From positions 1 to 53,527 of IMG/VR virus record IMGVR_UViG_3300042922_000627: DNA of 53,527 nucleotides, one strand, 5' to 3'. The DNA is from a virus. Its lineage: Duplodnaviria > Caudoviricetes. The first letter of the stretch is position 1, and every line of letters begins with the position of its first letter. Below are positions 35,100 to 49,398 of this stretch, piece after piece. The notes under the pieces are model-generated. The model had not been told where the DNA came from. It did no database searches and worked only from the letters and a program-made list of their open reading frames with translations. A program made the position numbers and the translations under genes.

Positions 35100-36449
35100 T
35101 TACTTCTCAGCCTCGCTATTCTCAAACAGTTCATGTGTACCGTTCATCAGGGCTTTTTCCTCGTCTGACATTTCATAGCCGAGTTCTTCAAGCAGGGCAT
35201 AAATCTCATCAAGGACCTCATTTTCAACCTTCTGTGCGTTCCAGTTGTAATAGCTTTCAGTCTCTGAGTCATTTGCCAAGTAGGTAACAAGGAATAAATG
35301 CCTCTCAGGCTGTGCTGAAATTCTGTCATAAATAGAAGTTTCAAATGCATCTTCTTCATCATCGTTTCCATCCTCGGGCTGTGTGATGTCAAGCAACTCT
35401 GCTAAATCATCTATATCTACGTTGGGGTAGTCAAATATTGTTTTTATGGATTGCTTTATAATGGAGCCGATATTCTTTTTGCATTTAGTATTCGATATAT
35501 CTTTTGCAAATTTAAGCCTGAGCTGATAGGCTCTCTTTGTAACTTCTTTCAGAGCCACTTTCAGCTCCTCAGTTTTCTTGCGTTTCTCTTCAGTTGCTGT
35601 ATCTACCACTCTCGGCTGGCCTTTCTTATAGAGAGTATAGTAGTTAACGTAACTTTTGTTGCCGGGCGAGGTATAAAAATATTCTACTGTATCGGCATCT
35701 TCGGGTTTTTTGACTTGATTGCCTTGTGATGGATAATAAGTTGTTATGTATTCAAAACCATTGATATTGTCTATTTCAGTTGCAAATTCTTTTAAACTTG
35801 CTTCTATCAATGACTTATTTGCATTACACTTTTCATTTTCAATAGCCTGCTGTAATTCCCATTTAAAATTGGAAGTACCTATTTTTTCAAGTACTTTATT
35901 CCTCAAAGCGACATCCTGGATTCTTTCCAGTTCAATGAAATCCAATAGCGTAGCTCCACGGTCTACAGCTTCCTTAACCTTTTTGTTGTTCAGTTTTGTA
36001 ATATTCAATCTACGTCTTACAGTGGTTTCTGAAAACCCTGTTCTTGCTGAAATATCAGTGATTGAATCCCCAAGTTCAAGCAGCATCTGAAATCCTTGGG
36101 CCTGCTCCCAAACTGTGAGATCATTACGTTGCATGTTTTCCATAAGCATTGTTTCTTGCTGAGTCTTTTCATCCATATCAGACAAAACACAGGGAAGTTC
36201 TGTAAGACCAGCAAGCTTTGCAGCACCTAATCGACGATTGCCGATGACCACATAATATCCCATTTCCTCCTGTGCCTTTGGGTCGTCTGCTCCGACACCC
36301 GTAATAATGCTGAACCAAGGAACAACAGTCAGGTTCTGGAATATTCCATTGACCTTAATGCTTTCTGCAAGTTCTGTCAGGTCGCCAAGGTCCCTTCTTG
36401 GATTTTTAGGGTGATTATGTAATTTGCTTATCTCAATATTTTGAATCAT
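35100..36449 (-). CDS. ParB/RepB/Spo0J family protein, 449 aa
   Basis: HPKNPR, LAESIKVNGIFQNLTV, IGNRRLGA, ENMQRNDL, HTH. Confidence 0.92.
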   Translation of the reverse strand: MIQNIEISKLHNHPKNPRRDLGDLTELAESIKVNGIFQNLTVVPWFSIITGVGADDPKAQEEMGYYVVIGNRRLGAAKLAGLTELPCVLSDMDEKTQQETMLMENMQRNDLTVWEQAQGFQMLLELGDSITDISARTGFSETTVRRRLNITKLNNKKVKEAVDRGATLLDFIELERIQDVALRNKVLEKIGTSNFKWELQQAIENEKCNANKSLIEASLKEFATEIDNINGFEYITTYYPSQGNQVKKPEDADTVEYFYTSPGNKSYVNYYTLYKKGQPRVVDTATEEKRKKTEELKVALKEVTKRAYQLRLKFAKDISNTKCKKNIGSIIKQSIKTIFDYPNVDIDDLAELLDITQPEDGNDDEEDAFETSIYDRISAQPERHLFLVTYLANDSETESYYNWNAQKVENEVLDEIYALLEELGYEMSDEEKALMNGTHELFENSEAEK

Positions 36450-36469
36450 AGTGGTTTTGCTCCTTTCGA

Positions 36470-37327
36470 TTAGAACAATGTCAATTGTTCATATTTGCCT
36501 TTCTTCAGGCTATTCTTATTTTTGGGTGATTCACTCACAATTTCAGGTATTTCATTCACTGTTTTTGCCGTTTCGTTCACACTTTCTGTTATTTTAAACA
36601 GTTCTTTGATAGTACGCCGCCAATGCCAGATATCAAGAAAGTAGAAAGGGGTGTACCAGACATTTTGCTCGGACAGTGATTGGGTCGGGGGAGTGGTAAG
36701 AGTATTTCCGACGATGATGTACCCGGGACAACCTAATAGGCTGAGCTGAATATAACACATCATAGCGGCGGTGAAGTCGATGTCTTGGGCTACAAATAGG
36801 ATATGCTGCTGATAGTTTATGCCTTGGCGTTTAGCTTCGTTGGCAAAAGCGATAAGGAGAGCTCCAGCGCCACAGCAGCAGTCATTGACTGATATGTAAC
36901 CTTTCTTACTGAGTTCGGCTTCAAGATTACCGGTGCTTATCATCGACATTGCTTTGCATACATCGTAAGGTGTAAAGAATTGACCGTTGCGGTCGTTTCC
37001 AAGCTCCAGCCTCATGTACAGCTCGCCAAGCAAGTCCTGTTCCTGATTTTCCTCCAAGGCATTTATGACTTCAGCGAGCATTGAGGAAAACTGCTCTAAT
37101 TCGACAGACGTGTATTTTTTAGAGATATCGGAATAGAGCTTTTCTCGTTCCTCACGCCGTTCAACATCTGCCATCGAAAGTGTGCAGGCTGCCATTGTCA
37201 CAAAGTCAGACCAGATTATCCATCTGTTGTGTTTCCCGGAGTGAGTTAATCCATCAAAGGTTTTAACTATAGCTTTCTGATGGCCATTTTGTAAACGTGG
37301 AGGGTTTGACATTCTATTCACCGCCAT
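36470..37327 (-). CDS. N-6 DNA methylase-like protein lacking the NPPY motif
   Basis: GQFFTP, DCCCGAGALL, QDID, GNTL present; no (N/D)PP(Y/F). Confidence 0.75.
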   Translation of the reverse strand: MAVNRMSNPPRLQNGHQKAIVKTFDGLTHSGKHNRWIIWSDFVTMAACTLSMADVERREEREKLYSDISKKYTSVELEQFSSMLAEVINALEENQEQDLLGELYMRLELGNDRNGQFFTPYDVCKAMSMISTGNLEAELSKKGYISVNDCCCGAGALLIAFANEAKRQGINYQQHILFVAQDIDFTAAMMCYIQLSLLGCPGYIIVGNTLTTPPTQSLSEQNVWYTPFYFLDIWHWRRTIKELFKITESVNETAKTVNEIPEIVSESPKNKNSLKKGKYEQLTLF

Positions 37328-37821: not shown

Positions 37822-38358
37822 TCACGCTTCATCATCAGAATCATCACCGCCTTCGTCATCATCATCATTCTCAAGGCCATAATCGTCGTCAGTGACGTCG
37901 GTGTCATCAGTATTCTCAAGCGGTTCTGGATTGCCAACGTCCTCAGCCTCCAGGTCGTCATCATAGCCTGATGAATCATCCTCACTGGCTTTTGGCAGCT
38001 TTTCTCCAGTCAGGAGGCTTTTTTCAATTACCTCCCGGTTAAAGAACTGCAGCCACATAGCGTGCATATTCTTATACAGGTTTTTGATTTTGCTGAAAAG
38101 CACATCGCTGATAGCAAACGACTCGGAAATTTTGTAAGTGAGTACACCGTCCTTATACGCAAATACCATGGCTGCATCTGGACTGGATTGTTCCTTTTCC
38201 TCACTTTCCAGCAAACTCATTTGTTCAAGTCCATTGACCGGGCGAATGGTGAGGGTAATGGGATAACTGTCGTTTTTGAACCGGAATACCAGCTCATTCT
38301 CGTCACATACTCCCTGAAGCTTTTTCTTGTAAGCTTCGTACTTTGCAATTTCACTCAT
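37822..38358 (-). CDS. Hypothetical protein with very acidic C-terminal tail
   Basis: Strong RBS GAAAGGAG; D/E-rich last ~45 aa. Confidence 0.75.
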   Translation of the reverse strand: MSEIAKYEAYKKKLQGVCDENELVFRFKNDSYPITLTIRPVNGLEQMSLLESEEKEQSSPDAAMVFAYKDGVLTYKISESFAISDVLFSKIKNLYKNMHAMWLQFFNREVIEKSLLTGEKLPKASEDDSSGYDDDLEAEDVGNPEPLENTDDTDVTDDDYGLENDDDDEGGDDSDDEA

Positions 38359-38863
38359 TTTCCTTGCTCCTTTCGATTTTTATATATTTTGTTTCAATGA
38401 ATGTGAGGCCTATTGCGTAGGCAGCCCATATGTCATCTTTGAAACCGTGAAACCAGTCTGGATTTTTCAGAGTACCTCTGCCACATTTGAAATCATGCTT
38501 TGCAAATCGGTCTATAAGTGCTCTGCGGATATTTGGATCTCCAGCTTTACTGTCATGGCAGATATGCATTTTTTCTTCCATGCGGTAAATGAGCTGGGGC
38601 TTGGCGTATGTCTTGCGCCTGAATACTTCATAAAACCTACCAATCCAGAAAACTGTGTCCAGTACATCTTTGCCGATTAGATTTCCGTAGCTCTGCATCA
38701 TTTCGATAGCCGTGCGGTCATCCTCTTCAAACTTCATGGCTCGAATTTCCTTGCGGAGTTCTTCGTTCTTGAGAATTCCAAATGCTAATGGTCTCAGGGT
38801 ATCAGCATCGATTATGCAATATGCGCTTTTTGTATTGCCCGGGTCTATAGCTATAACTCTCAT
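38351..38863 (-). CDS. RuvC-like Holliday junction resolvase
   Basis: MRVIAIDPG, AIE, DDIWAAYAIG. Confidence 0.82.
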   Translation of the reverse strand: MRVIAIDPGNTKSAYCIIDADTLRPLAFGILKNEELRKEIRAMKFEEDDRTAIEMMQSYGNLIGKDVLDTVFWIGRFYEVFRRKTYAKPQLIYRMEEKMHICHDSKAGDPNIRRALIDRFAKHDFKCGRGTLKNPDWFHGFKDDIWAAYAIGLTFIETKYIKIERSKENE

Positions 38864-41848: not shown

Positions 41849-42372
41849 TATATGCCACCTCCGTTTCCAAGAAATCTATTAAGCTCGTCAGGTGACATCG
41901 TTTCGATACCGAGCGATTCTGCCTCCTGAATGAGCTGGTCAATCAACAGACTCATTTGCTTGGTGTCGTAGGTGGAGGAGCCGTAGTACAGGATGACGTT
42001 TGTACAGCCAAGAATTTTACTGGGTAATGTTTCTGTTTGCCATCCGGTACCACGGCATTCCCAACCGTCCCGGAGCTTTCGGACGGCTTCATCTTTCACG
42101 CAGACCGTCTCAGATACGCCGCCTATACTCCGTATTGCATCCTTATAAACCACGGCTTTGTCGATGGACATTGCAGCTGCAATCTTGTCAATCAGCACCC
42201 ATGCATAAGCATTTGCGTCCAGAGAGCGTTTTTTTCGGAACTTTTTGATTTCAATATCAATATCTGAATCCTTTAGCTCGTCGAAGGTTTCCCTGAAATC
42301 TTTGCGAACGATCACGGTTATGTGCTGCTCACCGTTTCTGCCGAATGTCAAATCTTTAAGCCGTCCTATCAT
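41848..42372 (-). CDS. NinB-like recombination protein
   Basis: KRSLDANAYAW...GSSTYDTKQMSLLID...LGIET. Confidence 0.78.
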   Translation of the reverse strand: MIGRLKDLTFGRNGEQHITVIVRKDFRETFDELKDSDIDIEIKKFRKKRSLDANAYAWVLIDKIAAAMSIDKAVVYKDAIRSIGGVSETVCVKDEAVRKLRDGWECRGTGWQTETLPSKILGCTNVILYYGSSTYDTKQMSLLIDQLIQEAESLGIETMSPDELNRFLGNGGGI

Positions 42373-42980
42373 AGTGCCACCCATTTCTCAGCAAATGTCT
42401 CTATTAGTCCCTGACGTTTGAGGAATTTGAGGAAGTCCTCAATCACCGGGATAATACTCGGAGTTTCCTCACGACTGTACCCTTCAGGCCACACATTGGT
42501 ACCATTGCTGACAAGGTACATAAATTCTTTGGCTTCCGGCACAAGCTCAAAGTATGTAGGGTGCTGGGTACTGTCGAGGTACTTGCCAATTTCATAGCTG
42601 CCAGAAAACTTTATGTCGAAGATTATCCCGGCTTTTAGAGCGTCCAATCTGCCATGAAGCAGAATAGGGACTCCTGAGACTTCGATTTCACGCCTTGCCT
42701 TAAACTGTAGTACACCGTTCTTGATTATCCTGGAGACAGAAGTTGCCGCTTCGTACCAGCCATGTGACGGATCACCGCAACCGCTCATAATATCCGTAAC
42801 CAAATTCTCAAAGTCGATACCTTTCTGCATAGCTTCGTTGGTCGGTGTTGGTTCTCTTCTCAGAGTTGCAACAAATTCTGCATAGGAATCTCTTTCACTT
42901 GTAGCATCCTCATAAGGGTTTTCCTGCATGGCGTACATCCACGAGGAAAGGAGCGAGTGTGTAATAAGGTATCTGTCCAT
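42369..42980 (-). CDS. PD-(D/E)XK nuclease-like protein
   Basis: GIDFE...HGRLD...FDIK...STQHPTY; follows Sak4. Confidence 0.75.
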   Translation of the reverse strand: MDRYLITHSLLSSWMYAMQENPYEDATSERDSYAEFVATLRREPTPTNEAMQKGIDFENLVTDIMSGCGDPSHGWYEAATSVSRIIKNGVLQFKARREIEVSGVPILLHGRLDALKAGIIFDIKFSGSYEIGKYLDSTQHPTYFELVPEAKEFMYLVSNGTNVWPEGYSREETPSIIPVIEDFLKFLKRQGLIETFAEKWVAL

Positions 42981-43933
42981 TATCTAGCCTCCTTGTCCTC
43001 CAGCGCCGGTACATATTTTTTCTTTGCCTGATCAAATATCAGCTTCAACTCAGCCATCTTAGCTTTGAAATCAGCGCCGATTTCTTTCTCTGATGTGAGA
43101 GCGTGCTTGATAGCTTTGATTTTCGGCATTGCTGCATTAGCGGTTTTTGCATCTATGACTGTTTCTGAAATAGCTGCATATTCGGCCATTGCTGCATCGT
43201 AAGCAGCTAGTTCCTGTGCCCCATCCTCGACTTCCTTCGCAGCGAGAGTATTGTATTGTTTGAACAACTTTGTAAGGAAGTCGTTTGCATTGGTAGGAGT
43301 GAGTTCAGGCACTTTGATGACACCTTTAATTCCCCTGGTTCCTTTGGCAAAATATTTCTCGCAGTTGGAAAATCCGATTGTGCGTTCGTTACCAAATATT
43401 TCAACAAAGCCGCCAAGGTCCATAGGTTCCCAAACATTGTTTTTTGTCTGACCTTCAACCTTAATACGGAGGCGGGTGTTGTCGCCATCCTTCTCCTCGA
43501 TGGCGTGGAATATAACAATGATGTGCTTTTTTAACTCATAGAAGCAGTAATCCATGAGCCGGACAAACTCTCTACCGACTGCACCATACCCCTGTAGGGA
43601 CAAGCTGCCGTCCCGTTTACCATTCTTGATATCCTTCTTCATAGCCCAAAGTCCCATTAGTGAAATGAGCTTCCCACCTGTATCAAACACAAGACTATCA
43701 AAGTCCTTTGTGTTTTCAGGTGTGAGGTCTTCAAGAATTTCATCGTAAGTCTGTGGCTGGATATAGGGTTTGCGATACCTAGGTTCAATACGGTCGATAC
43801 CAAAATCGACGTCGATATGAAGTGGATTTGGTGCAGAGAGCGCTAGAGTGGATTTGCCGATACCAGGATAACCGGCTATAAGGATACGGATTTTCTTTTT
43901 GCCCTCGGAAATTTCATTTGGATTTCTAATCAT
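42980..43933 (-). CDS. Sak4-like (AAA_24) recombinase ATPase
   Basis: GYPGIGKSTLA, DVDFG, FDT, GYG, FH motifs. Confidence 0.88.
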   Translation of the reverse strand: MIRNPNEISEGKKKIRILIAGYPGIGKSTLALSAPNPLHIDVDFGIDRIEPRYRKPYIQPQTYDEILEDLTPENTKDFDSLVFDTGGKLISLMGLWAMKKDIKNGKRDGSLSLQGYGAVGREFVRLMDYCFYELKKHIIVIFHAIEEKDGDNTRLRIKVEGQTKNNVWEPMDLGGFVEIFGNERTIGFSNCEKYFAKGTRGIKGVIKVPELTPTNANDFLTKLFKQYNTLAAKEVEDGAQELAAYDAAMAEYAAISETVIDAKTANAAMPKIKAIKHALTSEKEIGADFKAKMAELKLIFDQAKKKYVPALEDKEAR

Positions 43934-44388
43934 GTGGTTTTGCTCCTTTCGGTTATTGAATTATTTGTAGAGGCGGTTTTACGCCTGATGTACTGCCGTA
44001 CTCTGTGGGTGAGCCATGCTTGCATTGTGTCAAAGCCCTCGGCCTTAACAAATTCTTTCAGCGCCTTATACTCGTCATCTTCAAGACGACAGGATATCCG
44101 GCAGGTGAGGCGGTGACCATCGTTCTTATCCTTAGTCGCCTTTGAGCTGTCATCCTGGGGAGTCTGAATAGCTGATTTATCTTCCGACAGCTTATCAGGG
44201 GCGAATTTCATCAACAGCGCATTCATTGCGTCATTTCTAAGCTGAATACCGTACTCATTCCCACGCTCACATTTACTTTGCATGGTTTTGTCGTACTTAG
44301 GGTATAGCTTCTGGACAACAGACACTATCTCTTTGGCAGGGAGTTGGCGGCTTGTCCGTAGTTCTCTCAAATCAGCGTCCATCTGCAT
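43930..44388 (-). CDS. Hypothetical protein (possible HTH plus RHH DNA binder)
   Basis: YDKTMQSKCE motif; C-terminal RISCRLEDDEY..L. Confidence 0.7.
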   Translation of the reverse strand: MQMDADLRELRTSRQLPAKEIVSVVQKLYPKYDKTMQSKCERGNEYGIQLRNDAMNALLMKFAPDKLSEDKSAIQTPQDDSSKATKDKNDGHRLTCRISCRLEDDEYKALKEFVKAEGFDTMQAWLTHRVRQYIRRKTASTNNSITERSKTT

Positions 44389-44551
44389 GGCCCCCTTGCT
44401 TGACAGCTCTTTTGGGAGCTGATAGACTTAATGTAGTGGTTTTGCTTGGAGGCTGTTCCCGTTGCTGCGGGGCAGCCTCTTTCTTAGCACAATCGCAAGT
44501 CTCGTTAGGATCTAAGTTCGCACCACAATAGATACAAGTCCTATAAATCAT
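44372..44551 (-). CDS. Small Zn-ribbon protein (59 aa, not in ORF track)
   Basis: MIYRTCIYCGANLDPNETCDC; RBS GGAGG. Confidence 0.75.
   Translation of the reverse strand: MIYRTCIYCGANLDPNETCDCAKKEAAPQQREQPPSKTTTLSLSAPKRAVKQGGHADGR
44400..44428 (+). promoter_or_regulatory. Antisense SigA promoter
   Basis: TTGACA (44400-44405), 17 nt, TAGACT (44423-44428); palindrome CAGCTC-6 nt-GAGCTG across the spacer. Confidence 0.75.
44434..44486 (+). ncRNA. Candidate ~50-nt antisense/trans-acting sRNA
   Basis: Promoter above; 5' leader TAGTGGTTTTGCT; terminator GAGGCTGTTCC...GGGGCAGCCTC-TTTCTT. Confidence 0.62.
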
Positions 44552-44553
44552 GT

Positions 44554-44859
44554 CTATATTCCTCCCGTTGTGTCATCCTTTAGTCCAAAGTAGTCAAGCC
44601 AGAACTGTTCTTTCCTTTCGGCACATGGCCTATCCTCTTGGTAATTAACCATATGTTCTAGGACCTCTTTGCCACATTGAGGGCAATATGCTTGATTAAG
44701 TAGAGGCACCAGGATTATGCCATCGTCAAAACTAAAATGAGTATTACAATTGTCACACCGTGGCATCAGGTTCTTTGAATAATTAATAAGTTCAGCACAT
44801 GTAATGTTTAGCCAGCCTATTCCGTTCTCTTTTCTCAAAAATTCAGCCATATCAATCAC
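44554..44859 (-). CDS. Hypothetical Zn-finger protein
   Basis: CDNC...LNQAYCPQC. Confidence 0.7.
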   Translation of the reverse strand: MIDMAEFLRKENGIGWLNITCAELINYSKNLMPRCDNCNTHFSFDDGIILVPLLNQAYCPQCGKEVLEHMVNYQEDRPCAERKEQFWLDYFGLKDDTTGGI

Positions 44860-45912
44860 CTACACTTTCGTGAGCTGCCGCCATAATGCCGGTGCCATAG
44901 TGGCAATCCGGAATCCGGTGGCTTCAAGCTCGGTAGCTCGGTCATAGCTGGTTACATCCTGACTGTGACGGGTAACGGCGTTAGCTAGGCCGTAGAGGGA
45001 GAGATCGCCTCCTGATATCAAGTGGCCTAAAATGCCTTCGCTTTCATTTTGGGTTATGCTGTATTCTTTTGATGTGAGTTCAACCACCTTCGGAACGAAA
45101 GGAGGATCGATTTTTGCTTGGGTGCTTTCCCTGAGACGTTCAACTATTTGGGAAAAACGTGCCTGGTCTACGGCTGCATTAACAGCGTCCTCAACCTTCA
45201 TTAGAAATGCACGGTCATCAGCCTCAATAGTTTCATCACGAAAGATATTGAAATTGTCATCACTCTCGTTGGAACGTCCAACATGATACTTCCTGACTGC
45301 GCCATCCTCAGCAATCATGCCATTTGTGCAGACTAATCTGAATATAAGAGGTTTGATTGCAACACTACCGTGGCCAACCTCTGAATTAGATATAACAATG
45401 CCTGCTTGTACAATATCACCTTTGGTAACCTCGGCAGTAATGCGAGGATTGACGACTTTAATGTACATGCGACTATCGGTCAGCTCGCAGCTTTCCACAT
45501 TAGCACCGTCCATATTGCCTATAATCGGTAAAACTGTTTGAGCGACCTCGAAATTGTCAATCCTACGGTAACGGTCACTCAAGAATGCTCTTGCTGTACC
45601 ATCGAGAGTGCGAAGCATGCGTCGTGTGTTAGGCTCCTTATCAAACCAACTGTTGACGTTGCTTGACAGGAGAGAAGGATTCTCACTCCTCATGCGGTCA
45701 TAATACTGCGCAGGTATTTTTAGGTGCTGGCCGAATTGCCTGTGAGCTATGTCGTTAATACCGAATATGTCCCGGTCACCAGCATTCAATTTGAAGCCGG
45801 ATTCGTCTGCATCCATACGCAGCGAGCCAGTGTCGACAATTAGGTCTCGTTTCGCCTTTGCCTGGCGGTCGAGCTCAATAGCCATTTCTTGCAATGTTCT
45901 TCCTGTTTTCAT
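44860..45912 (-). CDS. DUF932-family protein
   Basis: RAFLSDRYRRIDN, ISNSEVG.G, RLVCTNG, H.G; start MKTG at 45912 after GAAAGGAG. Confidence 0.85.
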   Translation of the reverse strand: MKTGRTLQEMAIELDRQAKAKRDLIVDTGSLRMDADESGFKLNAGDRDIFGINDIAHRQFGQHLKIPAQYYDRMRSENPSLLSSNVNSWFDKEPNTRRMLRTLDGTARAFLSDRYRRIDNFEVAQTVLPIIGNMDGANVESCELTDSRMYIKVVNPRITAEVTKGDIVQAGIVISNSEVGHGSVAIKPLIFRLVCTNGMIAEDGAVRKYHVGRSNESDDNFNIFRDETIEADDRAFLMKVEDAVNAAVDQARFSQIVERLRESTQAKIDPPFVPKVVELTSKEYSITQNESEGILGHLISGGDLSLYGLANAVTRHSQDVTSYDRATELEATGFRIATMAPALWRQLTKV

Positions 45913-46133
45913 GTGTTTGCTCCTTTCAGTGCAGCTCTCTTGGCTGCAATTCTTGCGTCCAGTATTTCTTTGCCTCCCGGCTGCCGGAGGAAGTCTTTGA
46001 CACAATCCAGTACCGTTGCGGCGAGGTCATCGCTCACATGCTTCGGGATAGCCGAAAAATCAATCTGAATGTTGTTGGTCAGCTCGCCCTCATCAGGAGG
46101 ACAGTAATTAGCCGCTCGCCGTGCTCTTTCCAT
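45909..46133 (-). CDS. Small early protein downstream of cro
   Basis: GAAAGGAG RBS; stop overlaps the next start. Confidence 0.7.
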   Translation of the reverse strand: MERARRAANYCPPDEGELTNNIQIDFSAIPKHVSDDLAATVLDCVKDFLRQPGGKEILDARIAAKRAALKGANT

Positions 46134-46156
46134 AATAATCACTCCTTTCAAAATTA

Positions 46157-46519
46157 GGCGCATATATGCGACTATTGAACCAAAAAAATTTCTATTGCCT
46201 CTTCTTTGGTCAGAACTAGGGCATCGCATATTTTGTGCATATCTCCGATACGGAGCTTTCCATCTTTAAGCCTACGATAGAAGGTGCTTCTATCTATGCC
46301 TATTTCATCGGCAACAGCCTCTTTTGTGGTCTCACGTTCTACGATTTTCCCATTTAATTTGTTGGTATCCATGTGATACATTACTTTACCCCCTTTGATG
46401 ATATTTGCAGGTATTTGTCGCATAAATGCTACTTTGTGTTTTAAGAATACTCTTTGTCGATGCCATTGTCAATAAAAAAGTCGCATAAATGAACATCTTT
46501 TTTGTTGCAATATTGCGAC
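46157..46519. promoter_or_regulatory. Four 16-bp repressor operators and divergent promoters
   Basis: GTCGCA-W4-TGCGAC variants at 46157, 46417, 46480, 46504; leftward TTGACA(46472)-17-TATTCT; rightward TTGCAA(46505)-17-TATACT with TGn extension. Confidence 0.85.
46172..46381 (-). CDS. Cro-like HTH protein
   Basis: KLNGKIVE...VADEIGIDRSTFYRRL...IF; divergent from repressor. Confidence 0.88.
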   Translation of the reverse strand: MYHMDTNKLNGKIVERETTKEAVADEIGIDRSTFYRRLKDGKLRIGDMHKICDALVLTKEEAIEIFLVQ

Positions 46520-46552
46520 ACTAATGTTATACTAAGTGGCGGAGGTGTTATC

Positions 46553-46894
46553 ATGACTACTGGAGAGCGTATTCGTGCTCGTAGGAAAGAAATCAACGTT
46601 TCGCCCGACGAGCTAGCTGATAAAATTGGAGTATCACGGTCAACCATATTTAGATGGGAGAATGGATTTATTGAGAAAATGCCAGTAGATAAGCTGGTAC
46701 CGATTGCTAGAGTATTACAAACTACCGTAGGTTACCTAATGGGATGGGAAGACGAGGAACAAACACCCGCCTCCGGCGCCGAAGACGGGTATGAAAGTGA
46801 AGCTAAACGTTTTTTTGAAGCTCTTCCTGAGAATCGTAAACTTGAGGCTTTAAATTATCTTCGGTATCTTGCAGCGAATCCAGACAAGCAATGA
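46553..46894 (+). CDS. CI-like XRE repressor without S24 peptidase domain
   Basis: GERIRARRKE...LADKIGVSRSTIFRWENG...YLMGW; GGAGG RBS. Confidence 0.92.
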   Translation: MTTGERIRARRKEINVSPDELADKIGVSRSTIFRWENGFIEKMPVDKLVPIARVLQTTVGYLMGWEDEEQTPASGAEDGYESEAKRFFEALPENRKLEALNYLRYLAANPDKQ

Positions 46895-46964
46895 ATTTCT
46901 GCTTTTCATCTTGCGTAAGTTGGCAAAAGAGCCCTCTTATATCCATCCATGTCAGTGTAACCAT
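46803..46964 (-). CDS. 53-aa protein antisense to the repressor 3' end; candidate antirepressor
   Basis: RBS AAAAGGAG; TATAAT at 47016-47011; hydrophobic pattern matches the repressor C-terminus. Confidence 0.62.
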   Translation of the reverse strand: MVTLTWMDIRGLFCQLTQDEKQKFIACLDSLQDTEDNLKPQVYDSQEELQKNV

Positions 46965-47137
46965 ATGTAACAACTCCTTTTGTTGTGAGATACCTGTCGA
47001 CATTATGTTAATTATAACGGATTCCGTTATTTTAAAAAAGAGTAAAACTGGCTAAATTTGTTAGTATTGATTAAGAATAGGTTTTTTATATATTGTATGG
47101 CATTAAACAATATGAGTATGGTCAGGAGGAGATATTC

Positions 47138-47593
47138 ATGGCCGAGGTTAACATCACATTACATTGTATGAATGGATTTACGTTATTCACAAAAGGCGAA
47201 AATCTAATTGTTACAACGAAGCGTGCAGAAGAAATATTTCCAATATCTAAAATTCAATCTTTTATTCTCAAAGAACCGAGGACACTAAGCCCTGGAAGCA
47301 TATTATTCCGCACAGCTCAATCATCATCGGCAGGTATTAATATAGGCTTTGGAATAGGTGTAGCTCTTGGAGCAGAAAAGACATTTTTCTTTCAAAAGTC
47401 AGATTTTGAGACTGCAAAGAACCTGCGTGATTATATTTCCGATTATGGCAAAAAGTCTTCCGGAGAAGTGACAAATGGTAAAACAGTTGTATCTGTAGTT
47501 GATGAAATTCGTGGACTAAGGGACTTGCTTGATGAAGGAATACTCACTCAGGATGAATTCGATGCAAAGAAAAAACAACTTTTAAGCTTGTAA
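47138..47593 (+). CDS. SHOCT-domain protein
   Basis: VDEIRGLRDLLDEGILTQDEFDAKKKQLL; AGGAGG RBS. Confidence 0.85.
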   Translation: MAEVNITLHCMNGFTLFTKGENLIVTTKRAEEIFPISKIQSFILKEPRTLSPGSILFRTAQSSSAGINIGFGIGVALGAEKTFFFQKSDFETAKNLRDYISDYGKKSSGEVTNGKTVVSVVDEIRGLRDLLDEGILTQDEFDAKKKQLLSL

Positions 47594-47772
47594 GAGAGTG
47601 ACACCAATGATAGAAATCATTTAAATTACTCTTCTTACACAAAAGACACAGAAATAATCAGTGGAATCATTTACAATTGTCCATTGTACTTATATTAACT
47701 TTACAAGGGCTACTTGTTTCTGCAAAATAATTGCATGTTTATATGACAAGCAACATTATGATGAGAGGAGTG

Positions 47773-49398
47773 ATGCCGGTGGCCAGAAAAGCTATGTTTG
47801 ATAGAAAGACGTCTGCGATTGCCGTCATCTATGCCCGGTATAGTAGCCATTCGCAAAAGGATGTCAGTATAGAGCAGCAAGTTGAGGAATGCCAGGCATA
47901 TGCTGACGTAAACAATATGAAGGTCATTGCTGTTTATGCCGACCGTCATCTTACGGGAAAAACGGATAAGCGTCCGGATTTTCAAAGAATGATGAGGCAT
48001 GCGGAAAAGAAACAGTTTCAGGTTATTATATCGTATAAATCAAACCGTATGGCTCGTAACATGCTTCAGGCTTTACAATATGAAGAAAAATTATCTAAGT
48101 TTGAAATCAGAGTCGTTTATGCAAAAGAGGAGTTTGGCGATAATGCTGCAGGTAGGTTTGCCCTTCGTACCATGATGAACGTTAACCAGTTCTATAGTGA
48201 GAATATGGCTGAGGATGTCATGAGGGGAATGCTCGACAATGCGGAAAATTGCCTCATTACGAACGGCTGTCTGCCCCTAGGTTATAAAAAGGGGGATGAT
48301 GGAAGGTATGCTATTGATGAGCCTGCAGCTGAAATAGTCAGGGAGATATTTACCCAAGTAGCATGCGGAGAGCCATTTATGGATATTGCTTCTGACTTGA
48401 ATACTCGCAATATTAAAACTAGCAAAGGAAATGTATGGAACAAAAACAGCTTTCATTCAATTCTGACCAACGAGCGTTATACAGGAGTTTATATATACGA
48501 TGAAGTACGAGTTGATGGAGGTGTCCCTCAGATCATCGACAAGGAGCTATTTTTCAGAGTGCAGGAGGTATTGAAAATGAAAAAGAACCCTCAAGGCCGT
48601 CACCGAATAAATGGCGATTACTTGCTCACTGGCAAGCTATATTGTGGCCATTGCAAAAGTCATATTGTTGGCGTATCAGGCACAGGCAAATCTGGCAATC
48701 TTCATCATTATTATGCATGTATGGGTAAGCGCCTTGGAAAGGTATGTAAGAAGTCACCGGTACGTCGTGATTGGATAGAACAGGAGGTCGCTAAAGCCAT
48801 CAAACAGTATATAATCCGTGATGATGTACTTAACTGGATAGCCGATACTGTAACTGAATACGGTAGGAAGAATAAGGATAACTCTCAGACCTCTTTGTTG
48901 GAAAACCAACTTGCCGAGAATAAAAAGGCTACAAAGAATTTGCTTTCTGCTATAGAACAAGGAATTGTAACGGAAACGACCAAAAGCAGACTTCTGGAGC
49001 TTGAAGCCGAGCAATCCAAAATCATAGGCCTTCTTGCAATCGAAAAATCAGAAATTCCAGAGATAAAAAGAGAGCATATTGTGGCTTGGTTGGAAAGTTT
49101 CAAGGATGGAGATATTGAGGATAAAAAGTTTCAGTCAAAGTTATTTGACACATTCCTCACTGCTGTTTATATTTACGATAATGATTTACGGATAGTATTC
49201 AATTTTACTGGAAAGAAAAATACAATTGAAATTCCATTAAAGGCGGAAATTATTGATAATATTAAGATTTCGGGTACGGCTGATAGTTCGTATAAATTCT
49301 CCTATGGGTCACCAAAAGAGAGCCATACGAACACAGCGGCAACCATTTATATGGTAAGCAATGTGTTCGTTTTGGTTTCACCACTAATTAGAAAATGA
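47773..49398 (+). CDS. Large serine recombinase (integrase)
   Basis: YARYSS, RPDFQRM, GY, Zn ribbon YLLTGKLYCGHC...YYAC...C, coiled coil. Confidence 0.96.
   Translation: MPVARKAMFDRKTSAIAVIYARYSSHSQKDVSIEQQVEECQAYADVNNMKVIAVYADRHLTGKTDKRPDFQRMMRHAEKKQFQVIISYKSNRMARNMLQALQYEEKLSKFEIRVVYAKEEFGDNAAGRFALRTMMNVNQFYSENMAEDVMRGMLDNAENCLITNGCLPLGYKKGDDGRYAIDEPAAEIVREIFTQVACGEPFMDIASDLNTRNIKTSKGNVWNKNSFHSILTNERYTGVYIYDEVRVDGGVPQIIDKELFFRVQEVLKMKKNPQGRHRINGDYLLTGKLYCGHCKSHIVGVSGTGKSGNLHHYYACMGKRLGKVCKKSPVRRDWIEQEVAKAIKQYIIRDDVLNWIADTVTEYGRKNKDNSQTSLLENQLAENKKATKNLLSAIEQGIVTETTKSRLLELEAEQSKIIGLLAIEKSEIPEIKREHIVAWLESFKDGDIEDKKFQSKLFDTFLTAVYIYDNDLRIVFNFTGKKNTIEIPLKAEIIDNIKISGTADSSYKFSYGSPKESHTNTAATIYMVSNVFVLVSPLIRK
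49286..49332. other. Candidate attP inside the integrase 3' end
   Basis: GTTCGTAT...ATACGAAC inverted arms spanning 47 bp around GGGTCACCA. Confidence 0.6.

What the first reader, a model, noticed from the sequence alone, without database searches (positions are those of the whole stretch)
44400..44486. Antisense ~50-nt sRNA whose 5' end matches translation-initiation regions of distant early genes
Seen: a near-consensus promoter (TTGACA-17-TAGACT) fires against the early operon into a GC-rich terminator, leaving a short unpaired 5' segment TAGTGGTTTTGCT (44434-44446). The same plus-strand string occurs at 36449-36461 (13/13), so it is complementary to GAAAGGAGCAAAACCACTATG at the start of the 449-aa ParB gene. 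It also occurs at 43934-43944 (11/11), at the SD-start spacer of Sak4. A weaker copy (GTGTTTGCT) lies at the DUF932 start (45913-45921). Inference: one phage sRNA silences several lytic genes in trans through a shared RBS spacer, a second immunity layer analogous to P1 c4 or P22 sar RNAs but multi-target.
Basis: partly seen in the sequence, partly recalled or inferred. Interest (0 to 1): 0.82.

Follow-up and report, generated by a model that had tools for sequence, protein, structure and literature searches.

The report
Conserved antisense small RNA in prophages
A tiny RNA gene of about 50 bases, pointing against the early genes of a gut-bacterium phage, is conserved in many related phages and so is almost certainly real, but whether it also switches off distant genes, as first proposed, remains unproven.

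Summary
TTGACA-17-TAGACT with an extended -10 TG lies at 44400-44428. It is followed by a 14-nt unpaired tail, a -24.5 kcal/mol hairpin and a U-run. The 13-mer recurs exactly at the ParB start, and 11 nt of it recur at the Sak4-like start.

Relatives show the gene is real. The same promoter-tail-hairpin-U-run unit is present in 20 of 20 viral loci and 50 of 64 metagenome loci that were fetched only through the neighbouring 152-aa protein. Promoter spacing is fixed at 17, TG is kept in 49 of 50 distinct elements, and the stem shows compensatory changes. The overlapping sense ORF reads the element in two different frames, so selection acts on the nucleotides. Rfam has no match.

The trans, multi-target reading is not established:
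- In the window the ParB and Sak4 sites are clear outliers (-19.9 and -19.1 kcal/mol; next best -13.7).
- Only 3 of 18 relatives reach p<0.05 against shuffled tails, and none does against random same-strand k-mers.
- The candidate target genes are not homologous between lineages.
- Across the family, the tail diverges as fast as the promoter spacer.

Best reading: a new family of cis-antisense phage sRNA, working like lambda OOP or P22 sar. Trans targets may exist in this lineage. No RNA data could be obtained.

The parts
44400..44405 (+). -35 box of the sRNA promoter (TTGACA)
   Evidence: The fifth letter C and sixth letter T/A/G were not imposed by the search regex, yet give TTGACT 32, TTGACA 17 and TTGACG 1 among 50 distinct elements.
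44406..44422 (+). 17-nt spacer ending in the extended -10 TG (44420-44421). It holds a 6-bp inverted repeat (44404-44421).
   Evidence: Spacing is 17 in every element found. TG is present in 49 of 50 distinct elements although no search required it. Inverted-repeat arms of 5 bp or more occur in 22% of 45 distinct spacers against 4.6% of shuffles, but not in L143.
44423..44428 (+). -10 box (TAGACT)
   Evidence: It varies among relatives as TAnnnT, with 12 variants including TAAACT, TACAAT and TATCCT. TA...T was imposed by the regex; the fixed spacing from an independently conserved -35 and TG was not.
44429..44434 (+). Discriminator; the predicted start is at A44435
   Evidence: Position -1 is T in 20 of 25 distinct discriminators. 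Position +1 is A or G in 22 of 22 distinct 14-nt tails. The start site is inferred, not measured.
44435..44448 (+). Single-stranded 5' tail of the sRNA (the 'seed'), 14 nt
   Evidence: Unpaired in the minimum-energy fold. Family consensus is R-G-n-U-n-n-U-U-U-U-G-n-n-n, with 30 distinct tails. It is 14/14 identical in L143.
44449..44479 (+). Terminator hairpin: outer stem of 7-9 bp, inner stem CCCGU/GCGGG, 4-nt loop
   Evidence: Among 27 distinct hairpins, stem positions 1, 2, 4, 6 and 12 carry two or more Watson-Crick pair types. The inner stem is nearly invariant.
44480..44485 (+). U-run after the hairpin (TTTCTT)
   Evidence: Relatives have TTTTTCT, TTTTTTT and similar.
44372..44551 (-). 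59-aa zinc-finger ORF of the early operon whose 3' two-thirds is the cis target (fully complementary to the sRNA)
   Evidence: In relatives the upstream ORF reads through the element in either of two frames and stops 13-36 nt past the -35 box.
43930..44388 (-). 152-aa gene immediately downstream on the sense strand. Its SD (44391-44397) abuts the -35 box. It is a probable DNA-binding regulator.
   Evidence: A homologue sits in this position in 18 of 22 genomes examined. No Pfam, PHROG or NCBIfam family matches. The AF2 model has pLDDT 81. The best Foldseek hits are XRE/Cro-type HTH domains, but only at E >= 0.29.
36449..36461 (+). Candidate trans site 1: complement of the SD-start spacer of the ParB-like gene (35100-36449, -)
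   Evidence: 13/13 match. Duplex energy -19.9 kcal/mol, the best of 173 candidate initiation regions.
43934..43944 (+). Candidate trans site 2: complement of the SD-start spacer of the Sak4-like gene (42980-43933, -)
   Evidence: 11/11 match. Duplex energy -19.1 kcal/mol, second best. It shares an 18-nt block with the ParB site, the longest shared by any pair of 68 initiation regions.

Best explanation
44400-44485 is a real gene for a ~50-nt non-coding RNA. It is transcribed against the early lytic operon from its own strong extended -10 promoter and ended by its own terminator. It belongs to a previously uncurated family found in prophages of gut Clostridia (Lachnospiraceae, Oscillospiraceae, Flavonifractor, Eubacterium). 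The family sits at the junction between the early regulatory genes and the recombination/replication genes, usually just upstream of a 152-aa HTH-type gene. The function shared by the family is most likely cis-antisense control. The RNA is perfectly complementary to about 50 nt of early mRNA and could act in three ways: pairing starts at the free 5' tail or the complementary 4-nt loops; the duplex is cut or blocks ribosomes that read through from the upstream ORF; RNA polymerase at the convergent promoter also interferes with transcription. Any of these would lower expression across the junction, as lambda OOP does for cII and P22 sar does for ant. No copy of the repeated motif of the cI/cro intergenic region (presumed repressor operators) lies in the promoter, so the RNA is probably also made in lysogens. 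Shown: conservation and co-variation of every part of the gene, and selection at nucleotide level. Inferred: the transcript itself, its 5' end, the cis mechanism and its direction of effect.
For: The element is present in 20 of 20 viral loci and 50 of 64 metagenome loci that were retrieved only by homology to the neighbouring protein (42-74% aa identity). Promoter spacing is always 17. TG is kept in 49 of 50 distinct elements, and -1 Y / +1 R is conserved. All 26 distinct RNA variants fold as tail plus hairpin (-14.1 to -29.6 kcal/mol) plus U-run. Compensatory pair changes occur at five stem positions. The conserved nucleotides are translated in two different frames in different lineages, so the constraint is not on the protein. 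The position in the operon is conserved: a 152-aa homologue lies downstream in 18 of 22 genomes. The element persists when the upstream gene (G002, G006, G016a) or the downstream gene (G010, G016a, G016b, G017) differs. Outside the family-wide motif, the tail diverges as fast as the spacer and discriminator, as expected if complementarity is automatic, that is, cis. No similarity to the repeated motif of the cI/cro intergenic region was found. OOP, sar and aQ precedents are taken from passages of the review PMC12197685.
Against: No transcript was observed. The RNA does not overlap the ribosome-binding site of the 152-aa gene (about 36 nt away), so simple RBS occlusion in cis is excluded and the cis mechanism must be indirect. 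A cis-only model does not explain three things: the family-wide tail motif (RGnUnnUUUUG); the near-invariant inner hairpin and loop; and the tail being 14/14 identical in L143 while the discriminator (1 of 6 identical) and the spacer (9 of 17 identical) diverged. The two outlier initiation-region matches in the window are also left to chance or common descent.
Confidence: 0.5

Rival explanations
1. One reading: the sRNA acts in trans through its 5' tail on the SD-start spacers of several distant early genes (ParB-like, Sak4-like, perhaps DUF932), as an extra RNA layer of immunity. This could coexist with cis action.
For: In the window the ParB and Sak4 initiation regions give -19.9 and -19.1 kcal/mol against -13.7 for the third best of 173. 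None of 120 random same-strand 14-mers, none of 60 shuffled tails (energy) and none of 300 shuffled tails (ungapped pairing) reached the observed value. The two sites share an 18-nt block, the longest of any pair of initiation regions. L143 keeps both the tail and the Sak4 block. In G010 a different tail pairs with two initiation regions that share their own block, in front of a DUF3102 gene and a 194-aa gene; p ~0.017 against shuffles. Fisher combination over 19 lineages gives p = 0.0065, or 0.044 without the window. The layout (5' tail, U-rich stretch, hairpin, U-tail) resembles the Hfq-binding module of trans sRNAs; that resemblance is recalled, not tested here.
Against: Only 3 of 18 relatives reach p<0.05 against shuffles (G010, G016b, G005). 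None of 18 does against random same-strand k-mers (p 0.26-0.98). The longest exact matches in cognate relatives (8-10 nt) are no longer than non-cognate ones (up to 12 nt). The window's own tail finds 12 nt in the unrelated genome G003. Candidate targets are not homologous across lineages: ParB and Sak4; DUF3102 and an unknown; phrog_6777; ERF. Tail divergence tracks spacer divergence. The DUF932 site is not in the top 10. The Sak4 region of L143 is so similar overall that its conservation says little.
Confidence: 0.28
2. The conserved thing is a DNA-level device. A strong convergent promoter interferes with or blocks early-operon transcription at the module junction, or it marks an origin or recombination joint. 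The short RNA is a by-product kept short by the terminator.
For: The promoter elements are the most strictly conserved parts after the inner hairpin. The element lies at a mosaic junction with different genes on either side in some lineages. The -35 box abuts the SD of the downstream gene.
Against: The hairpin keeps its fold through compensatory changes. The inner stem and loop are conserved far beyond what a terminator needs. This points to a function of the RNA, or of a structured nucleic acid, and not of the promoter alone.
Confidence: 0.12
3. Chance: a promoter-like and a terminator-like string inside a coding region, with no transcript of any consequence.
For: Consensus scans find such sites at near-chance frequency: 8 against 5.6 expected for promoters and 3 against 3.3 for terminators in 3.5 kb.
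Against: The complete unit is conserved at fixed geometry in 20 of 20 and 50 of 64 independently retrieved loci, with co-variation and across two reading frames.
Confidence: 0.03

Closest known systems
Lambda OOP RNA (and lambda aQ RNA)
   Same: A short RNA from its own promoter, with its own terminator, encoded antisense inside the early region of a temperate phage. OOP overlaps the 3' end of an upstream regulatory gene and lowers its expression through RNase III (PMC12197685, passages seen). Here too the RNA overlaps the 3' part of an upstream ORF and not a ribosome-binding site.
   Different: No sequence relationship. The host is a Gram-positive Clostridium-type bacterium. The RNA is about 50 nt, against 77 nt for OOP (OOP length recalled). 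The overlapped gene is a zinc-finger ORF or whatever ORF lies upstream. Effect and nuclease dependence are untested.
P22 sar RNA
   Same: A small antisense RNA within a phage regulatory operon that tunes expression of the next gene (passages).
   Different: By recall, sar covers the ant ribosome-binding site. This RNA ends about 36 nt short of the SD of the 152-aa gene.
P1/P7 c4 RNA (Rfam has a C4 family, by recall)
   Same: A phage RNA that blocks translation by pairing around a ribosome-binding site at a distance from its own gene. Its specificity determines immunity (passages).
   Different: By recall, c4 is processed from the same transcript as its target and pairs through loops. This RNA would pair through a 5' tail with two or more unlinked genes. 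No Rfam family matched the region at E<=10 apart from one spurious lncRNA hit.
Type I toxin-antitoxin antisense RNAs of Clostridioides difficile prophages
   Same: A small antisense RNA opposite a small ORF in a Clostridia prophage (PMC7699646; only the listing and start of the abstract were seen).
   Different: The overlapped 59-aa ORF is a hydrophilic zinc-finger protein, not a hydrophobic toxin. The element persists where that ORF is replaced.

Membership tests
Phage cis-encoded antisense sRNA (OOP/sar/aQ kind) | Own promoter on the strand opposite to an operon | tested here: met
   TTGACW-17-TGnTAnnnT is conserved at fixed geometry in relatives retrieved by protein homology.
Phage cis-encoded antisense sRNA (OOP/sar/aQ kind) | Own intrinsic terminator giving a short discrete RNA | tested here: met
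   Hairpin plus U-run in all 26 distinct variants, with compensatory changes. This is a prediction only.
Phage cis-encoded antisense sRNA (OOP/sar/aQ kind) | The transcript exists and lowers expression of the overlapped or adjacent genes | not testable with these tools
   No RNA run was listed.
   13/13 and 11/11 matches; -19.9 and -19.1 kcal/mol, outliers among 173 regions.
   3 of 18 relatives at p<0.05 against shuffles; 0 of 18 against random k-mers. Targets are not homologous. In L143 both sides are unchanged.
Rfam families (all 4227, by recall including C4) | Covariance-model match | tested here: not met
   Only one hit at E<=10, a eukaryotic lncRNA model at E = 4.8.
Type I toxin-antitoxin | Small hydrophobic toxin ORF opposite the RNA | tested here: not met
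   The 59-aa ORF is hydrophilic with a CxxC...CxC motif. The ORF is replaced in G002, G006 and G016a while the element stays.
CRISPR-repeat mimic (solitary repeat or RNA anti-CRISPR) | The hairpin equals a CRISPR repeat of the host, which would occur in arrays | tested here: not met
   In 5 host genomes the degenerate hairpin core occurs only at the prophage elements plus scattered single hits at the level of the reversed-pattern control; no arrays. Other hosts were not examined.

The most novel reading that the evidence does not exclude
The family is a minimal, re-targetable phage sRNA with a constant scaffold (U-rich stretch, conserved hairpin, U-tail) and a fast-evolving 5' tail. In some lineages the tail has been captured from, or matched to, a ribosome-binding block shared by several early genes: ParB and Sak4 in this phage, DUF3102 and a 194-aa gene in G010. 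One 50-nt RNA made in the lysogen would then silence several lytic genes in trans. It might also silence those of superinfecting relatives. That would be a multi-target RNA layer of immunity not described for Gram-positive phages.
Probability: 0.25. Interest if true: 0.8.

Novelty: new member of a known kind. Interest (0 to 1): 0.55.

Why it matters
Phage-encoded regulatory RNAs are known almost only from phages of enterobacteria. The 2025 review I consulted does not contain the word 'Gram-positive'. This element is a compact sRNA gene, deeply conserved and easy to recognise, in prophages of major human-gut Clostridia. It is embedded in coding sequence that is read in two different frames. It gives a concrete handle on how these poorly studied temperate phages control their early genes. 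Family members sit in cultured isolates: Flavonifractor porci P01024, Flavonifractor sp. An100 and Oscillospiraceae bacterium 44-5. Those strains are directly testable.

Tried and rejected
- RNA evidence: no RNA holder was listed for 42000-48000.
- The INPHARED phage search found only two short partial matches.
- The exact 17-mer hairpin scan also returned unrelated loci without the promoter-tail-hairpin unit. Some of these look like terminase genes by my reading of the DNA, not checked by a family search. G011 and G012 were dropped for this reason.
- The degenerate pattern scan of genomes gave 30 loci. About half were unrelated (Cytobacillus, Pseudomonas, spirochaetes and others) and were dropped after inspection.
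- RNAalifold on a MAFFT alignment recovered only the inner stem, because the 3' arm is misaligned by 1-nt length differences. I replaced it with per-sequence folds. No covariance model was built.
- A reciprocal scan for the 18-nt ribosome-binding block in viral contigs found one unrelated locus.
- The MAG that holds an identical copy of the element (G026) has exact 13-mer copies only at the two phage sites. One-mismatch hits number 9, against 6 for the reversed control.
- No similarity between the sRNA promoter and the cI/cro intergenic region.
- The CRISPR-repeat idea was rejected. The type I toxin-antitoxin idea was rejected.
- The profile search of the 152-aa family against PDB sequences found nothing. 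Foldseek gave only weak HTH hits.
- Three literature searches listed no paper whose title or abstract start describes such an element. Only listings and abstract starts were seen, plus passages of PMC12197685. Supplements were not consulted.

Full report
SETTING. The window is a 53.5-kb virus record. Its early lytic operon runs on the - strand, starting from a cro-like gene (46172-46423) that faces a CI-like repressor gene (46502-46894, + strand). Going down the operon, the genes are:
- a 106-aa ORF;
- a DUF932 gene;
- a 101-aa zinc-ribbon ORF;
- a 59-aa zinc-finger ORF (44372-44551);
- a 152-aa gene (43930-44388);
- an AAA_24/Sak4-like gene (42980-43933);
- about 8 kb further on, an N6-methylase gene and a ParB_N gene (35100-36449).
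The finding lies entirely inside the 59-aa ORF, on the opposite strand.

OBSERVATION.
- The promoter is TTGACA-17-TAGACT, with TG at the extended -10 position.
- The RNA 44435-44486 folds into 13 free nucleotides plus a hairpin of -24.5 kcal/mol. The z-score is -4.0, and 0 of 200 shuffles fold as well.
- The 13-mer recurs exactly at 36449-36461. Eleven nucleotides of it recur at 43934-43944.
- Both copies lie in the spacer between the SD and the start codon, of the ParB-like gene and the Sak4-like gene respectively.
- These two initiation regions share 18 identical nucleotides. That is the longest block shared by any pair of 68 crude gene starts.
- A consensus scan by itself is no evidence. 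It finds promoter-like sites at close to the chance rate.

THE ELEMENT IS A CONSERVED GENE.
I fetched relatives through the neighbouring 152-aa protein only. This gave 20 viral loci (42-61% aa identity) and 64 metagenome loci.
- Upstream of the protein match, 20 of 20 and 50 of 64 loci carry the same unit on the antisense strand.
- The unit is: TTGACW, exactly 17 nt, TAnnnT, a 6-nt discriminator, a tail of mostly 14 nt, a hairpin and a U-run.
- The 14 metagenome loci that failed my regex are mostly short or cut contigs, or visible variants.
- Features that no search imposed are conserved all the same. TG is present in 49 of 50 distinct elements. T is at -1 in 20 of 25 discriminators. A purine is at +1 in 22 of 22 fourteen-nt tails.
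- The -10 box varies the way real -10 boxes do, with 12 variants of TAnnnT.
- All 26 distinct RNA variants fold as free tail plus hairpin (-14.1 to -29.6 kcal/mol) plus U-run.
- Among 27 distinct hairpins, stem positions 1, 2, 4, 6 and 12 show two or more Watson-Crick pair types. The inner stem and the GC core of the loop hardly change.
- The conserved nucleotides are read by the sense ORF in two different frames in different lineages. One frame gives ...EAAPQQREQPP..., the other ...EAAPAATGT.... The constraint is therefore on the nucleic acid, not on the protein.
- Pattern scans added prophages in MAGs and isolates of Lachnospiraceae, Oscillospiraceae, Flavonifractor and Eubacterium.
- A 53,499-bp contig of a Eubacterium sp. 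MAG carries an element identical to the window's.
- Rfam has no matching family.
- Three literature searches listed no paper whose title or abstract start describes such an element.

CONTEXT.
- A 152-aa homologue starts about 20 nt beyond the -35 box in 18 of 22 genomes. G010, G016a, G016b and G017 have other genes there.
- The upstream ORF also varies. It is usually the zinc-finger ORF, sometimes the C-terminus of the zinc-ribbon gene, sometimes something else.
- The element is therefore an autonomous unit at a mosaic junction, in front of the recombination/replication genes.
- In most of the genomes examined the upstream ORF runs through the element and stops 13-36 nt past the -35 box, close to the next start codon. 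This would fit translational coupling; that is an inference.
- The 152-aa protein has no family assignment. Its model (pLDDT 81) gives only weak matches to XRE/Cro-type HTH domains (E >= 0.29).
- The sRNA promoter shares nothing with the repeated motif of the cI/cro intergenic region, so it is probably constitutive.

TEST OF THE TRANS MODEL. I obtained whole or large parts of 21 related phage or prophage sequences. I scored each tail against candidate initiation regions on the operon strand.
In the window:
- ParB and Sak4 give -19.9 and -19.1 kcal/mol. The third best of 173 regions gives -13.7.
- None of 120 random same-strand 14-mers reached the observed value. Nor did any of 60 shuffled tails or any of 300 shuffled tails scored by ungapped pairing.
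- The DUF932 site is not in the top 10.
In the 18 relatives:
- Against random same-strand k-mers, p ranges from 0.26 to 0.98. None is significant.
- Against shuffled tails, three reach p<0.05 by ungapped pairing: G010 at 0.017, G016b at 0.033 and G005 at 0.037. The other 15 are at 0.166 or above.
- Fisher combination gives p = 0.044 without the window and 0.0065 with it. The energy-based test on 9 relatives gave 0.030. Shuffling destroys U-runs, which may flatter natural tails.
- Longest exact cognate matches are 8-10 nt, no better than non-cognate ones. The window's own tail finds 12 nt in G003.
- G010 is the one parallel to the window. Its different tail pairs with two initiation regions that share their own block, in front of a DUF3102 gene and a 194-aa gene.
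- The candidate targets are unrelated genes in different lineages.
Family-wide pattern:
- Tail identity falls in step with spacer and discriminator identity.
- The tail keeps a family-wide motif, R-G-n-U-n-n-U-U-U-U-G.
The closest relative, L143 (74% aa identity), is the exception:
- Its tail is 14/14 identical, while only 1 of 6 discriminator positions and 9 of 17 spacer positions are the same.
- Its Sak4 block is also unchanged. That whole region is very similar, however, and its ParB region is not on the contig.
Overall verdict on the trans model: a real statistical oddity in this lineage, no consistent co-variation elsewhere, and the question stays open.

MECHANISM. The property common to all members is antisense complementarity to about 50 nt of early mRNA at a fixed place in the operon. 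I therefore take cis-antisense control as the family's function (confidence 0.5 for gene plus cis mechanism).
- It is closest in logic to lambda OOP, which overlaps the 3' end of cII and acts through RNase III, and to P22 sar (PMC12197685, passages seen).
- The RNA stops about 36 nt short of the next SD, so the effect must come through cleavage or decay, through stalled read-through ribosomes, or through convergent transcription.
- A cis-only model leaves three things unexplained: the tail motif, the over-conserved inner hairpin, and the tail conservation between L143 and the window.
- These point to a partner that reads sequence. The partner could be a protein (Hfq is active in C. difficile according to a preprint of which I saw only the listing). 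It could also be RNA targets in trans.

REJECTED ALTERNATIVES.
- A type I toxin-antitoxin pair: the overlapped ORF is hydrophilic and can be replaced.
- A CRISPR-repeat mimic: no arrays of the hairpin core in 5 host genomes.
- A sense-strand terminator: no U-run follows the hairpin on that strand.
- Chance: excluded by the conservation described above.

NOVELTY. This is a new, uncurated family of a known kind, the phage-encoded antisense regulatory RNA, in a host group where none is characterised as far as my searches show. If the trans reading proved true, it would be a new variant: a minimal multi-target RNA.

Noticed in passing
window 36449-36475, 43934-43955, 38358-38380, 45913-45930 (- strand starts): Four early genes share the ribosome-binding block GAAAGGAGCAA: ParB-like, Sak4-like, a 178-aa gene and DUF932. 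ParB and Sak4 share 18 nt. ParB and the 178-aa gene share 15 nt. The reason for the shared block (duplication, recombination or common regulation) is not explained.
   Followed up: partly
window 45910-46005 (-): The DUF932 gene probably starts at the ATG at 45912, which has a strong SD and gives 350 aa. The listed longest ORF instead starts at the TTG at 46005 and gives 381 aa.
   Followed up: partly
window 44404-44421: The promoter spacer holds a 6-bp inverted repeat. Arms of 5 bp or more are enriched among relatives (22% of 45 spacers against 4.6% of shuffles) and differ in sequence between lineages. The closest relative, L143, lacks one. It could be an operator or a hairpin in the sense mRNA.
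   Followed up: partly
window 46400-46520: The cI/cro intergenic region carries a repeated 12-nt motif (two direct copies, with a related inverted copy near 46505-46520). These are probably the repressor operators. None occurs at the sRNA promoter.
   Followed up: no
window 44372-44551 and relatives (G001-G024): The small zinc-finger ORF (CxxC...CxC) runs on through the whole sRNA element in whichever frame is open. It ends 13-36 nt past the -35 box, overlapping the start of the next gene. This suggests translational coupling across the element.
   Followed up: partly
G016:C2:154399-154475 and G016:C3:97726-97803: One Lachnospiraceae MAG carries two prophages, each with its own copy of the element. 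The hairpins are the same but the tails differ.
   Followed up: no
L031, L033, L041, L048, G012: The 17-nt hairpin core also occurs by coincidence inside an unrelated phage gene that looks like a terminase (my reading of the DNA; not checked by a family search). This gives false positives in exact-word scans.
   Followed up: yes
L121 (Eubacterium sp. MAG contig, 53,499 bp): This contig carries an element identical to the window's and is almost the same length as the window. It is probably the same phage, and so a clue to the host.
   Followed up: partly
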